A stretch of DNA of 64,000 bases, taken from an uncultured Candidatus Saccharibacteria bacterium (GTDB taxonomy: Bacteria > Patescibacteriota > Saccharimonadia > Saccharimonadales > UBA4665). The position numbers and the translations under genes are program-made. The notes under the pieces were generated by a model, which was not told the DNA's origin, searched no databases, and saw only the letters and a list, made by a program, of their open reading frames with translations. The DNA lies in contig CAYZGW010000002.1 of assembly GCA_964478195.1 (NCBI GenBank), positions 1,109 to 65,108 on the forward strand, written 5' to 3'. How positions within the stretch are numbered: the stretch's first letter is position 1; every line of letters starts with the position of its first letter. Positions 49,260 through 52,249 of this stretch are shown in pieces.

Positions 49260-50780
49260 CTACAGATCTTGGAAGATAGTGACCTGTGCGCCCAAGCTGT
49301 TCAAACGCTCGGCTAGGTCTTCATAGCCTCGGTTGATTGTGTAGATGTTGCGGAGCGTACTAATGCCATCAGCAGCCAACATACCAATTAGCAGCAAACT
49401 AGCAGGGCGCAGAGCCGGAGGGCATACCACATCGGCTCTAGTGAACTTGGATGGCCCTAGTACGTACAAACGGTGTGGGTCGGCCAGTTCTACCTGAGCG
49501 CCAATCTTGGTGAGTTCGGTGTAGTAAATAGCGCGGTTTTCGTAAATCCAGTCGTGGATAAGGGTGCGACCCTTGGCCAGACAGGCAACCAGTACGAAGT
49601 AGGGCAGGTTATCTGGGTTAATGCCAGGGAATAGGTTGGGATGTATCTTGTCGATAAGGGCTAATAGTTTGTGGTTATGCTTGTGTACTGTTATGTCGGC
49701 TAGGTCAATCTGACCGTTTTCGGCCTTGTAGGGCTCGCTCATGGTAAACTGCAAACCCATCTTCTTAAGCTTCAGTAACTCAAGAGCAATCCAGCGATAA
49801 GGAACGCGCTCAATAGTGATTTCCGAGTTAGTAACAGCGGCCGCGGTAATGAAGAACATCGCTTCAATAGGGTCCTCGGTGGGTGAGTAGGTGATGTTTT
49901 TCTTGATGAACGATACGCCAGTGACACGAACAAATGGAGTACCAATGCCTTCAATCTTGACGCCCAGTTTCTGTAAGAAATAGCAGAGATCCTGCACCAT
50001 GTAGTCGCCACTAACGCCTTGAATGAATACCGGACTGTCGGTACGGGCTGCCGCCATAAGCGCGTTGTTGGTAGCAGTGTTACTCTGCTCGTACAATGTA
50101 AATTCTTTGGGTGCCTTTTTGTCGACAGTGACGTTATAGTGACCTTCGGTAGCTACAATATCAACACCAAATTGCTCAAGTGCAAACAGGTGTGGCTCTA
50201 CGGTACGCTCCCCTAGCTTACAGCCGCCAGCGTAAGGAATCTTAAATTCCTCATAGTCGTGCATCAGGCTGCCCATTAGCATCAGTACGGAGCGGGTTTT
50301 ACGGGCCGCTACTTTATCCATTTTTTCAAGATTGAGTTTCTCTGGTCGGCGGATCTCTAGGTCATTGCCATTATGCCATTTGGTTTGTACGCCAATGCTG
50401 TTTAGCACTTCAATAATGCGGTTGACTTCCTCGATATGCGGGAAGTTGCGAAACTTGGTTACGCCATAGTTAAGTAAACTAGCGCACAATAGTGCTACCG
50501 CAGCATTTTTGCTAGTTTTAAGCTGGATATTGCCGCTTAGCTCATGTCCGCCCTCGATGCGTAGGTTTACGCTGCCACTACCCAGTGAAATGATCTGTTT
50601 GTTGAGTGCTTCGCTAAGGCGCCCGAGCGTCTCTAGGCTCAAGTTTTGCTTACCTTTTTCGATCCGGTTGACAGCGGATTGGGAAGTCCCAAGCCGTTCA
50701 GCGAATTCAGCCTGTGTCATGCCGCGTTCCTGTCGTACGCGAGCTATAAAATCGCCTATTTTTTCGTTGGTTGTTGCCAT
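49260..50780 (-). CDS. murA: XRE-family HTH domain fused to UDP-N-acetylglucosamine 1-carboxyvinyltransferase (MurA)
   Basis: Residues 1-66 form an HTH_3 domain (RQERGMTQAEFAERLGTSQSAVNRIEKGKQN). The remainder is a full EPT fold with KTSKNAAVALL, YAGGCKLGERTVEP, GINPDN, PPALRPAS and TINRGYEDLAERL. Confidence 0.85.
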   Translation of the reverse strand: MATTNEKIGDFIARVRQERGMTQAEFAERLGTSQSAVNRIEKGKQNLSLETLGRLSEALNKQIISLGSGSVNLRIEGGHELSGNIQLKTSKNAAVALLCASLLNYGVTKFRNFPHIEEVNRIIEVLNSIGVQTKWHNGNDLEIRRPEKLNLEKMDKVAARKTRSVLMLMGSLMHDYEEFKIPYAGGCKLGERTVEPHLFALEQFGVDIVATEGHYNVTVDKKAPKEFTLYEQSNTATNNALMAAARTDSPVFIQGVSGDYMVQDLCYFLQKLGVKIEGIGTPFVRVTGVSFIKKNITYSPTEDPIEAMFFITAAAVTNSEITIERVPYRWIALELLKLKKMGLQFTMSEPYKAENGQIDLADITVHKHNHKLLALIDKIHPNLFPGINPDNLPYFVLVACLAKGRTLIHDWIYENRAIYYTELTKIGAQVELADPHRLYVLGPSKFTRADVVCPPALRPASLLLIGMLAADGISTLRNIYTINRGYEDLAERLNSLGAQVTIFQDL

Positions 50781-50956
50781 ATTGCTTATCTAGTATATCA
50801 CAAAATGCATACAAACAAGTTAGTGGCGTTGTAATTTCTTTAAAAGCTATAGTTAGTATAGTCGGGCTCTTGCCAAAATGCTAGACTAACCACTATGGTG
50901 TAATATCTCTGCTCCACTGGTTATACTAAGATGTGAAGAAATGAGGAGTAGGGGTA

Positions 50957-52249
50957 ATGGCAATGATGATTGACGAGGAAATTGCACGGCTGATAGCCGC
51001 TGAAGAGCAGCGCCAGCGTGAGGGCTTGGAGTTAATCCCGAGCGAAAACTATGTGAGCCGTGATGTGCTTACTGCTATGGGTAGCGTGTTTACTAACAAA
51101 TATAGCGAAGGTTATCCGGGCAAACGCTATTACGGTGGACAGGAAAACACCGACCAGGTAGAACAAATTGCTATCGACCGGGCCAAGAAACTTTTTAAGG
51201 CAGATCATGCTAATGTGCAACCGCACTCTGGTGCTCCAGCTAATGAGGCGGTATACAGTGCTTGGCTAGAGCCGGGTGATACTGTGCTGGCTATGGACCT
51301 TTCTCATGGTGGTCACCTTACCCACGGTGCGCCAGTGACGCGCAGTGCTAAGCTGTATAATTTTATCCGCTACAAAATGAAAGATCCGGCCACGGGTGAG
51401 ATCGATTACGAAGAGCTTCGAGAATTGGCAAAAAAACACCAACCCAAGATTATTCTGGCTGGGTTTAGTGCGTATCCGCGGGAGCTTGATTATGCTAAAT
51501 TCGCCGCCATTGCCCAAGAAGTGGGCGACGAATGTTTACTTATGGCCGACATGGCACATATAGCCGGGCTAATTGCAGGCGGTGTTGCTAAAAACCCCTT
51601 TGACTATGGCTTCCATGTTATTACCACTACTACACACAAGACCTTGCGTGGTCCGCGGGGTGGGCTGATTCTTTCAAAAGGTATTGTAGGTAATCCGCTG
51701 AAGGCTCCGGAAAAAACCCTAGAAAACATCCCGACGCTCATTGATCGAGCAGTATTCCCGGGGATGCAAGGCGGTCCGCACGAACACACGATTGCTGCCA
51801 AAGCTGTAGCGTTTGGTGAGGCATTAAAGCCAGAATTTAAGCAGTACGCTCAGCAAATCATTAAAAATGCTGCCGCATTGGCTGAAGCTTTGCAGCAGCG
51901 TGGTTTCCAGCTAGTAACTGGTGGTACTAGTAACCACCTTATCCTTGCCGATGTCTACCAAAGCTTTGGTTTGGATGGCAATGTCGTGGAAACGGTGCTG
52001 GATAAAATTGGCCTAACGCTTAACAAAAACGCCGTAGCCAACGATCCACTGCCACCATTTCGTCCAAGCGGTATTCGTCTGGGTACGCCGGCTATTACCA
52101 CCCGTGGTCTTACGGAAGATGAGATGGAGCAAATTGCCGACTGGATGCATCAAGCGATTGAGCATCGCGAAGATGATGCTCGGCTTGAAGAGCTGCGCAC
52201 TGCGGTTCGTGAGTTTGCGCTCAAGTATCCATTGCCAAGTGATAAGTAA
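50957..52249 (+). CDS. glyA: Serine hydroxymethyltransferase
   Basis: LELIPSENY, SHGGHLTHG and TTTTHKTLRGPRGG (PLP-Lys). Confidence 0.95.
   Translation: MAMMIDEEIARLIAAEEQRQREGLELIPSENYVSRDVLTAMGSVFTNKYSEGYPGKRYYGGQENTDQVEQIAIDRAKKLFKADHANVQPHSGAPANEAVYSAWLEPGDTVLAMDLSHGGHLTHGAPVTRSAKLYNFIRYKMKDPATGEIDYEELRELAKKHQPKIILAGFSAYPRELDYAKFAAIAQEVGDECLLMADMAHIAGLIAGGVAKNPFDYGFHVITTTTHKTLRGPRGGLILSKGIVGNPLKAPEKTLENIPTLIDRAVFPGMQGGPHEHTIAAKAVAFGEALKPEFKQYAQQIIKNAAALAEALQQRGFQLVTGGTSNHLILADVYQSFGLDGNVVETVLDKIGLTLNKNAVANDPLPPFRPSGIRLGTPAITTRGLTEDEMEQIADWMHQAIEHREDDARLEELRTAVREFALKYPLPSDK

What the first reader, a model, noticed from the sequence alone, without database searches (positions are those of the whole stretch)
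49260..50780. MurA fused to an N-terminal XRE-family helix-turn-helix domain
Residues 1-66 are a textbook Cro/C1-type HTH (IGDFIARVRQERGMTQAEFAERLGTSQSAVNRIEKGKQNLSLETLGRLSEAL). They are joined through GSGS to a full-length enolpyruvyl transferase that retains the MurA catalytic equivalents:
- Lys in KTSKNAAVALL
- Cys in YAGGCKLGERTVEP
- Asp in GINPDN
- Arg in PPALRPAS
- the C-terminal RGYEDLAERL

It is the only MurA candidate in the window, and the other peptidoglycan genes (mraY, murB, ddl) are scattered singly. A DNA-binding domain on the first committed enzyme of peptidoglycan synthesis implies either autoregulation that couples enzyme level or substrate state to transcription, or nucleoid tethering. 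This is not the canonical MurA architecture.
Basis: partly seen in the sequence, partly recalled or inferred. Interest (0 to 1): 0.6.

Follow-up and report, generated by a model that had tools for sequence, protein, structure and literature searches.

The report
MurA enzyme with built-in repressor domain
The only MurA (first enzyme of cell-wall synthesis) of this Saccharibacteria genome carries a conserved DNA-binding domain, and in relatives a matching palindrome sits on the gene's own promoter, so the enzyme most likely represses its own gene, a control circuit not described in the papers searched.

Summary
Window 49260-50780 (-) is one 506-codon ORF: an XRE helix-turn-helix (HTH, residues 8-62), a disordered linker, and a complete MurA with all catalytic residues. 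It is the genome's only enolpyruvyl transferase.

The fusion is the norm in Saccharimonadales: all 55 murA genes detected in 61 genomes have it. It also occurs in 45 of 401 sampled Patescibacteria.

A 16-bp dyad, ATAYCA-N4-TGRTAT, overlaps the extended -10 box 11-13 nt before the ATG.
- At one mismatch or fewer it is present in 35 of 57 HTH-bearing loci and 0 of 38 HTH-less loci.
- It is lost wherever the HTH was lost.
- It is unique or nearly unique in the genomes checked.

The best reading is a bifunctional enzyme-repressor that shuts off its own promoter.

Two caveats:
- In this window's own sub-lineage the left half-site is degenerate, and the assembled genome holds no canonical site. The HTH is nevertheless under strong purifying selection (dN/dS about 0.02).
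- The same dyad also occurs at 5S rRNA promoters (6 of 30, mostly as tandem pairs), around tRNA-Val/nrdR, and once at murB. The regulon may therefore be wider than autoregulation.

DNA binding is inferred, not shown. The scan noted this fusion before in other genomes, and one follow-up reached the same reading.

The parts
49260..50780 (-). Whole HTH-MurA gene, 506 codons plus stop
   Evidence: ORF list and translation show no internal stop. It is the only PF00275 match in the genome.
50595..50759 (-). XRE/Cro-C1-type helix-turn-helix domain, residues 8-62
   Evidence: Pfam HTH_3 covers 12-62, E 7.5e-17. AF2 predicts helices 2-18, 23-30, 34-41 and 49-59. R16, E41 and G43 are invariant. Q23, T32, S33, Q34, S35, R39, Q45 and N46 are 96% or more conserved in 123 proteins. 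dN/dS is about 0.02 in the own sub-lineage.
50565..50594 (-). Flexible linker, residues 63-72 (includes GSGS)
   Evidence: pLDDT is about 51 and falls below 50 at residues 64-68. It is the most variable stretch, with column entropy 1.85 against 1.03 for the HTH and 1.12 for MurA.
49263..50564 (-). Complete MurA (UDP-GlcNAc enolpyruvyl transferase) domain, residues 73-506
   Evidence: NF006873 scores 319 bits against a cut-off of 297. The best solved match is MurA 5ujs, E 4e-55, covering residues 70-503. K91, N92, R163, C187, R192, D390, R416 and R458 are invariant. The AF2 fold has pLDDT above 90.
50795..50810 (-). Operator-like dyad remnant ATGCAT-TTTG-TGATAT at -30 to -15 from the ATG. The right half is canonical and the left half is degenerate.
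   Evidence: It occupies the same position as the canonical ATAYCA-N4-TGRTAT of relatives. It has 4 mismatches to the strict consensus and 3 to the degenerate one. The altered left half (ATNCAY) is shared by the 9 closest species.
50792..50800 (-). Extended -10 box TGaTATACT of the murA promoter. 11 nt separate it from the ATG, which implies a near-leaderless mRNA.
   Evidence: Read directly from the sequence. The same geometry holds in 107 relatives: the site's 3' end lies 11-13 nt from the ATG in 75 of them.

Best explanation
The gene encodes the genome's single, catalytically intact MurA with an XRE-type HTH domain tethered to its N-terminus by a flexible linker.

Across the clade, the HTH most likely binds as a dimer to a 16-bp dyad, ATAYCA-N4-TGRTAT. 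The dyad covers the spacer and the extended -10 box of the gene's own near-leaderless promoter. A bound dimer would keep RNA polymerase off the promoter, so the enzyme would set its own level by negative autoregulation.

In subsets of genomes the same dyad also sits at 5S rRNA, tRNA-Val/nrdR and murB promoters. The protein may therefore control a small growth-related regulon.

Shown here:
- the domain architecture and the intact catalytic residues;
- purifying selection on the HTH;
- the dyad, its fixed position, its rarity in genomes, and its gain and loss together with the HTH.

Inferred:
- that the fused HTH is the protein that binds the dyad;
- that binding represses transcription;
- that the protein dimerises;
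- any dependence on MurA ligands.

In this window's own lineage only the right half-site is intact, so repression here is probably weaker or altered.
For: Architecture and enzyme.

Selection on the HTH:
- It is as conserved as the enzyme, and its recognition helix is nearly invariant.
- In the own sub-lineage dN/dS is 0.020 for the HTH against 0.063 for MurA.

The dyad at murA:
- At two mismatches or fewer it is present in 107 of 123 fusion loci, with its 3' end 11-13 nt from the ATG in 75 of those.
- At one mismatch or fewer it is present in 82 of 123.
- Symmetric variants such as ATACCA...TGGTAT keep the dyad symmetry.

Association with the HTH:
- At one mismatch or fewer it is present in 35 of 57 HTH-bearing loci and 0 of 38 HTH-less loci. 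The chance expectation is 0.003 per upstream window.
- On the MurA-domain tree, HTH-less forms are interspersed among fusions, with at least 7 state changes on well-supported branches. The operator goes the same way in about 5 of 7 independent pairs and never the opposite way.
- L053 keeps a decaying remnant that resembles its HTH-bearing sister's site.

Rarity and specificity:
- The strict exact dyad (ATATCA-N4-TGATAT) is unique in three genomes (G396, G010, G357), and in each it lies at murA.
- The exact degenerate dyad lies 12-19 nt before murA in 14 order genomes.
- The N4 spacing gives 84 sites against 31 for N5 in the same 61 genomes.
- It is not a generic promoter feature: none of 29 murB promoters has it.
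- Sites in 10 HTH-less genomes look like chance: 6 of 9 lie in ORFs and one is a terminator hairpin.
- The own genome has no close HTH paralogue that could be the binder instead.

The nearest solved HTH relatives are dimeric, palindrome-binding repressors: HipB, C-proteins, 434 repressor and SinR.
Against: - No binding experiment exists, and the identity of the binder is inferred from co-occurrence.
- In this window's lineage the left half-site is degenerate. The assembled genome has no canonical site at any promoter, yet the HTH is strongly conserved. In this genome it must therefore act on a weak site, on unassembled DNA (the rRNA region is missing), or in some other way.
- About 37 excess dyads per 61 genomes lie away from murA, so another factor with the same specificity cannot be excluded.
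- The independent-pairs sign test reaches only a median p of 0.06, because there are only 7 pairs.
- About a third of fusion loci have no site at one mismatch or fewer.
Confidence: 0.62

Rival explanations
1. The dyad is bound by a different, stand-alone regulator. The HTH fused to MurA does something else, for example protein-protein contact, dimerisation of the enzyme, or low-specificity DNA association.
For: The dyad also occurs at 5S rRNA, tRNA-Val/nrdR and other intergenic sites. The window's genome keeps a strongly conserved HTH without a canonical site. Other XRE genes exist in these genomes at 31-44% identity.
Against: The murA site is lost each time the fused HTH is lost. HTH-less orders have no promoter-type sites: 0 of 30 5S loci, and 9 chance-like sites in 10 genomes. 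No close paralogue carrying the same recognition helix was found in the own genome.
Confidence: 0.15
2. The HTH tethers MurA to the nucleoid or uses DNA as a scaffold. It would localise or modulate the enzyme rather than regulate transcription.
For: The flexible linker would allow it. The own genome lacks a canonical operator.
Against: A tether needs no specific site. Yet a position-fixed dyad on the -10 box is conserved across genomes whose intergenic DNA is otherwise unrelated. The recognition-helix residues are nearly invariant, which fits sequence-specific reading.
Confidence: 0.08
3. The palindrome is only a promoter architecture, an extended -10 box with a mirrored upstream word, and has no dedicated binding protein.
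For: The right half of the dyad is itself the TGnTATAAT-type -10 box. Several sites sit at strong stable-RNA promoters.
Against: N4 is 2.7-fold enriched over N5 with the same half-site words. Symmetric compensatory variants occur. It is absent from 29 murB promoters, which also have TATAAT boxes close to the ATG. It is absent from the HTH-less murA and 5S promoters examined. The 5S sites come as pairs spaced 32-34 bp.
Confidence: 0.05
4. The fusion is an artefact: two genes joined by a sequencing error or a missed stop.
For: None found.
Against: The ORF is continuous. The same architecture is found in more than 120 clusters, in 80 named loci, and in 55 of 55 murA genes detected in the order sample. 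Apparent 'HTH-only' or partial hits (G186, G411, G416, G424) are cut by contig ends.
Confidence: 0.01

Closest known systems
BirA of E. coli (biotin protein ligase and bio-operon repressor)
   Same: One polypeptide combines an N-terminal HTH with a metabolic enzyme. It represses the promoter of its own pathway by binding a palindromic operator that overlaps the core promoter. This rests on established knowledge of BirA. PMC8449670 (abstract seen, not read) reports on the BirA protein of Clostridium ljungdahlii.
   Different: BirA has a winged HTH, not an XRE type. It regulates the biotin biosynthesis operon rather than its own gene, and its dimerisation is driven by the reaction intermediate. 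Here the enzyme is MurA, the main target is its own promoter, and ligand dependence is unknown.
Other bifunctional enzyme-regulators: NadR, PutA, and archaeal RbkR (riboflavin kinase/regulator, PMC5397151)
   Same: A DNA-binding domain is fused to an enzyme of the pathway it controls. RbkR was likewise predicted by comparative genomics from conserved operators before it was tested (abstract).
   Different: They belong to different enzyme families and pathways, and none acts in peptidoglycan synthesis. No MurA-HTH fusion is described in the papers searched.
Small XRE-family dimeric repressors: 434 repressor/Cro, SinR, HipB, and restriction-modification controller C-proteins
   Same: They are the closest solved sequence relatives of the HTH module. 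They bind dyad-symmetric operators as dimers, and C-proteins bind adjacent operator pairs, as at the 5S sites here (established knowledge).
   Different: They are stand-alone regulators of 60-110 residues, or they carry small oligomerisation domains. None carries a 430-residue enzyme.
Known MurA control in Firmicutes: ClpCP proteolysis with ReoM/ReoY and PrkA
   Same: It serves the same purpose, which is limiting the level of the first committed peptidoglycan enzyme (my own knowledge, not checked here).
   Different: That control is post-translational and acts through partner proteins. Here control would be transcriptional and built into the enzyme itself.

Membership tests
MurA (UDP-N-acetylglucosamine 1-carboxyvinyltransferase) | Enolpyruvyl transferase fold (PF00275) over the full length | tested here: met
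   PF00275 covers residues 76-493, profile positions 2-417 of 417, E 1.2e-43. The AF2 fold has pLDDT above 90.
MurA (UDP-N-acetylglucosamine 1-carboxyvinyltransferase) | Score above the curated MurA family cut-off | tested here: inconclusive
   Subfamily NF006873 scores 319.2 against a cut-off of 297 (met). Equivalog TIGR01072 scores 300.3 against 392.7 (not met), and NF009470 scores 219.9 against 552 (not met). It is a divergent MurA. AroA models score far lower (72 bits).
MurA (UDP-N-acetylglucosamine 1-carboxyvinyltransferase) | Catalytic residues equivalent to E. coli K22, C115, R120, D305 and R397 | tested here: met
   K91, C187, R192, D390 and R458 align with the corresponding motifs of solved MurAs and are invariant in 62 fusion proteins. 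The E. coli numbering is from my own knowledge.
MurA (UDP-N-acetylglucosamine 1-carboxyvinyltransferase) | Fills the MurA step of a complete peptidoglycan pathway | tested here: met
   It is the only PF00275 gene in the genome. murB, mraY and ddl are present nearby.
MurA (UDP-N-acetylglucosamine 1-carboxyvinyltransferase) | Enolpyruvyl transfer from PEP to UDP-GlcNAc | not testable with these tools
   Needs an enzyme assay or complementation of a murA depletion strain.
XRE / Cro-C1 HTH_3 DNA-binding domain | Match to PF01381 above the gathering score | tested here: met
   61.6 bits against a cut-off of 23, residues 12-62.
XRE / Cro-C1 HTH_3 DNA-binding domain | Compact helical bundle containing the helix-turn-helix | tested here: met
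   AF2 predicts four helices at 2-18, 23-30, 34-41 and 49-59, with pLDDT 76-87.
XRE / Cro-C1 HTH_3 DNA-binding domain | Sequence-specific binding to a dyad-symmetric operator as a dimer | not testable with these tools
   A candidate operator was found by comparison. The homodimer prediction could not be run because the server was unavailable.
Bifunctional enzyme-repressors (BirA, NadR, PutA, RbkR kind) | Enzyme and DNA-binding domain in one polypeptide, both under selection | tested here: met
Bifunctional enzyme-repressors (BirA, NadR, PutA, RbkR kind) | Operator at a promoter of its own gene or pathway | tested here: met
   This holds for the clade and for murB in G028. In this window's own genome only a half-canonical site is present.
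Bifunctional enzyme-repressors (BirA, NadR, PutA, RbkR kind) | DNA binding modulated by the enzyme's substrate or product | not testable with these tools
   Needs EMSA with and without UDP-GlcNAc, PEP and UDP-MurNAc.

The most novel reading that the evidence does not exclude
HTH-MurA is more than an autoregulator. It would be a growth-coupling transcription factor whose DNA binding depends on the ligand state of the MurA domain (UDP-GlcNAc, PEP, UDP-MurNAc). Through one dyad it would tie cell-wall precursor supply to stable-RNA synthesis (tandem operators before 5S rRNA, and sites at tRNA-Val) and to the nrdR neighbourhood. This would operate in tiny-genome epibionts that have few regulators.
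Probability: 0.2. Interest if true: 0.85.

Novelty: new variant of a known kind. Interest (0 to 1): 0.62.

Why it matters
MurA is the first committed step of peptidoglycan synthesis and the fosfomycin target. How cells set its level is an active question, and the answers known so far are post-translational.

Here a whole bacterial order builds a repressor into the enzyme itself, and the predicted operator sequence is known. The circuit can therefore be tested directly with a gel shift and a reporter.

It also offers a rare handle on gene regulation in Saccharibacteria and other Patescibacteria, which have very few transcription factors and almost no characterised promoters.

If the sites at 5S rRNA and tRNA genes are bound by the same protein, it would link wall synthesis to ribosome production in these reduced genomes.

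Tried and rejected
- A three-copy 11-mer (TAGTATAACCA, TAGACTAACCA, TATACTAACTA; window 50850-50928) in the glyA-murA spacer looked like an operator. It is absent from relatives at 73% identity or below. It is only partly conserved as blocks within the closest 9 species. It is not the shared site.
- A split or stand-alone HTH next to HTH-less murA genes was not found. The apparent HTH-only hits G186 and G411 are contig-end truncations.
- murB as a general second target is rejected: none of 29 order genomes has the dyad there. Only G028 does.
- The own genome was scanned for the dyad. There are no exact strict sites, and 7 one-mismatch sites against 6 for the control. There are two exact degenerate sites, one inside an ORF and one 19 nt before a response-regulator gene. 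No tRNA has one upstream, and 5S rRNA is not assembled.
- The homodimer prediction (residues 1-500, two copies) could not be run. The server was unavailable five times, so there is no result either way.
- No Rfam family was found at the dyads downstream of tRNA-Val or at the G433 tandem pair.
- Literature searches for the fusion, and for leaderless promoters in Saccharibacteria, found nothing relevant.

Full report
**The observation**

Window 49260-50780 (-) is one open frame of 506 codons with no stop.
- Pfam finds HTH_3 at residues 12-62 (E 7.5e-17) and the enolpyruvyl transferase domain at 76-493 (E 1.2e-43).
- NCBIfam places the enzyme part in MurA. Subfamily model NF006873 scores 319 bits against a cut-off of 297. 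The strict equivalog TIGR01072 is missed (300 against 392.7), so this is a divergent MurA. AroA models score only 72 bits.
- The best solved relatives are MurA structures (5ujs, E 4e-55). These residues (K91, N92, R163, C187, R192, D390, R416, R458) are invariant in 62 fusion proteins.
- The genome is 1.24 Mb in 64 contigs and 94% complete. This gene is its only PF00275 match, so it is the only MurA and there is no aroA.
- murB, mraY and ddl lie within 12 kb but in separate transcription units.
- AlphaFold2 with a 62-sequence alignment gives a confident model (pLDDT 90.8). It shows a four-helix HTH module, a disordered linker (residues 61-70) and a complete MurA fold.

**Who has the fusion**

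- The closest homologues (77-96% identity, more than 120 clusters) all carry both domains. Sources name them as Saccharibacteria or Saccharimonadales MurA.
- Eighty named genome loci at 69-94% identity are all full-length fusions.
- In a sample of 61 genomes of the same GTDB order, all 55 detected murA genes are fusions or contig-end fragments of fusions.
- In 401 genomes sampled across the phylum, 45 carry the fusion. These include lineages that NCBI labels Uhrbacteria and Paceibacterota.
- Most other Patescibacteria have an ordinary MurA at 25-37% identity.
- G028 carries the fusion while its family-mate G055 has only a distant plain MurA, which suggests horizontal transfer.

**Selection on the HTH**

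- Over 123 fusion proteins the HTH is at least as conserved as the enzyme: mean column entropy is 1.03 against 1.12, and the linker is at 1.85.
- The start of the recognition helix and its neighbours (T32, S33, Q34, S35, R39, E41, G43, Q45, N46) are 96-100% conserved.
- Within the nine species closest to the window, dN/dS is 0.020 for the HTH and 0.063 for MurA. dS is saturated, so these ratios are rough.

**A conserved dyad on the gene's own promoter**

- A k-mer count over the upstream regions of 44 fusion loci pointed to a near-palindrome just before the ATG.
- It resolves to ATAYCA-N4-TGRTAT.
- Symmetric variants such as ATACCA...TGGTAT occur, so the dyad symmetry itself is preserved.
- Of 123 fusion loci, 107 have a site at two mismatches or fewer and 82 at one or fewer.
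- The site's 3' end lies 11-13 nt from the ATG in 75 of the 107.
- The right half plus the next three bases form an extended -10 box (TGnTATAMT) that ends about 9 nt before the ATG. This implies leaderless or near-leaderless mRNAs, and murB promoters show the same short distance.
- A dimer bound here would occupy the core promoter.

**Specificity controls**

- The background rate of sites at one mismatch or fewer outside murA upstream regions predicts 0.003 per window.
- The strict exact dyad (ATATCA-N4-TGATAT) occurs once in each of G396, G010 and G357, every time at murA.
- Across 61 order genomes the exact degenerate dyad lies 12-19 nt before murA in 14 of them.
- With an N5 spacer the same half-site words give 31 sites against 84 for N4.
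- None of 29 murB promoters has the dyad.

**Link to the HTH**

- A MurA-domain tree of 95 sequences shows a well-supported clade. HTH-less forms are interspersed among fusions, with at least 7 changes forced by well-supported branches.
- At one mismatch or fewer the dyad is present in 35 of 57 HTH-bearing loci and 0 of 38 HTH-less loci.
- In phylogenetically independent pairs the operator goes the same way as the HTH in about 5 of 7 and never the opposite way. The median p is 0.06, limited by the number of pairs.
- L053 (HTH-less) keeps a decayed copy resembling its HTH-bearing sister's site.
- HTH-less genomes have no stand-alone copy of this HTH beside murA. Elsewhere they hold none (three genomes) or only generic XRE matches at 32-39% identity (two genomes).

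**More than autoregulation?**

About 37 N4 dyads per 61 genomes are in excess of the N5 background after the murA sites are removed.
- Of 21 non-murA sites sampled, 8 lie in ORFs and 13 are intergenic.
- Several of the intergenic sites sit by stable-RNA genes.
- 5S rRNA: 6 of 30 loci in the fusion order have a site at one mismatch or fewer within 300 nt upstream. Five of them carry two sites 32-34 bp apart. None of 30 loci in an HTH-less order has one.
- tRNA-Val(gac): 5 sites lie upstream and 4 just downstream in 30 loci, where about 0.25 is expected in each zone. nrdR lies a few hundred bases further on.
- G028: the only other strict exact dyad in the genome overlaps the start of murB.
- The nine exact sites in ten HTH-less genomes are mostly in ORFs, or form a terminator hairpin, and none shows promoter geometry.

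These extra sites therefore track the fusion as well. That favours a small regulon over a second, unrelated factor, but it does not prove it.

**This window's own lineage**

- The own site (50795-50810) reads ATGCAT-TTTG-TGATAT. The right half and the -10 box are intact, and the left half is degenerate.
- The nine closest species (83-94% identity) share this altered left half, ATNCAY.
- The own genome has no exact strict dyad. Its one-mismatch count (7) equals the control (6).
- Its two exact degenerate sites are not at convincing promoters.
- No tRNA has a site upstream, and the 5S region is not assembled.
- The HTH here is identical to the consensus at the recognition positions and is under strong purifying selection.
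- It is therefore still in use. It could act on a weakened operator or on DNA missing from the assembly.

**Comparison with what is known**

- Enzyme-repressor fusions are a known kind (BirA, NadR, PutA, archaeal RbkR; for RbkR and BirA papers).
- The HTH module is an ordinary XRE domain whose nearest solved relatives are dimeric operator-binding proteins.
- I found no paper describing an HTH-MurA fusion.
- Earlier notes of this scan flagged the same fusion in at least seven other genomes, and one follow-up reached the same autoregulation reading.

**Verdict**

The fusion is real and is the standard MurA of Saccharimonadales. The best-supported mechanism is negative autoregulation through a dyad on the -10 box (confidence about 0.6). 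A wider regulon is possible. DNA binding, dimerisation and ligand control remain to be shown. The homodimer prediction could not be run.

Noticed in passing
L240 (G186) 512-560; L236, L242, L247, L259 likewise: Two ATAYCA-N4-TGRTAT dyads 32-34 bp apart lie 58-172 nt upstream of 5S rRNA, inside an unusually long 23S-5S spacer. This is seen in 5 of 30 Saccharimonadales genomes (a sixth has a single site) and in none of 30 genomes of an HTH-less order. It implies a separately regulated 5S promoter.
   Followed up: partly
L062 2077-2092 (G028:C6:40976-40991): In G028 the only strict exact dyad besides the murA one overlaps the ATG of murB. G028's family-mate G055 lacks the fusion, so G028 probably acquired the gene and its operator by transfer and then extended control to murB.
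   Followed up: partly
L294, L306, L297, L302 and others (tRNA-Val(gac) loci): Dyads recur on both sides of tRNA-Val(gac), with nrdR a few hundred bases downstream. Two downstream sites (L297, L314) are followed by the same 'acagggaatag' sequence, and no Rfam family matches there.
   Followed up: partly
window 50850-50928: The glyA-murA spacer holds three copies of an 11-mer (TAGTATAACCA type) in mixed orientation. Parts of them are conserved blocks among the nine closest species only. They may be the glyA promoter or binding sites for another factor.
   Followed up: partly
L068-L097 (murB loci) and murA loci: TATAAT-like boxes sit only 5-10 nt before the ATG of murB and murA in many Saccharimonadales, with no Shine-Dalgarno sequence in between. 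Leaderless or very short-leader mRNAs may be common in this order.
   Followed up: no
L214 1083-1130 (G433:C6:42282-42329): A tandem pair of dyads 32 nt apart lies in an intergenic region with no called gene or Rfam match immediately downstream. The target is unknown.
   Followed up: no
L222 1142 and 4449 (G407:C23): An identical dyad, with at least 25 nt of identical flank on each side, occurs twice 3.3 kb apart. It looks like a repeated element.
   Followed up: no
window 50957-52249 (+): glyA is the divergent neighbour of murA in 19 of the 61 loci then held, all fusion-bearing. murB lies a few kb further on the murA strand in several of these genomes, so the neighbourhood is conserved.
   Followed up: partly
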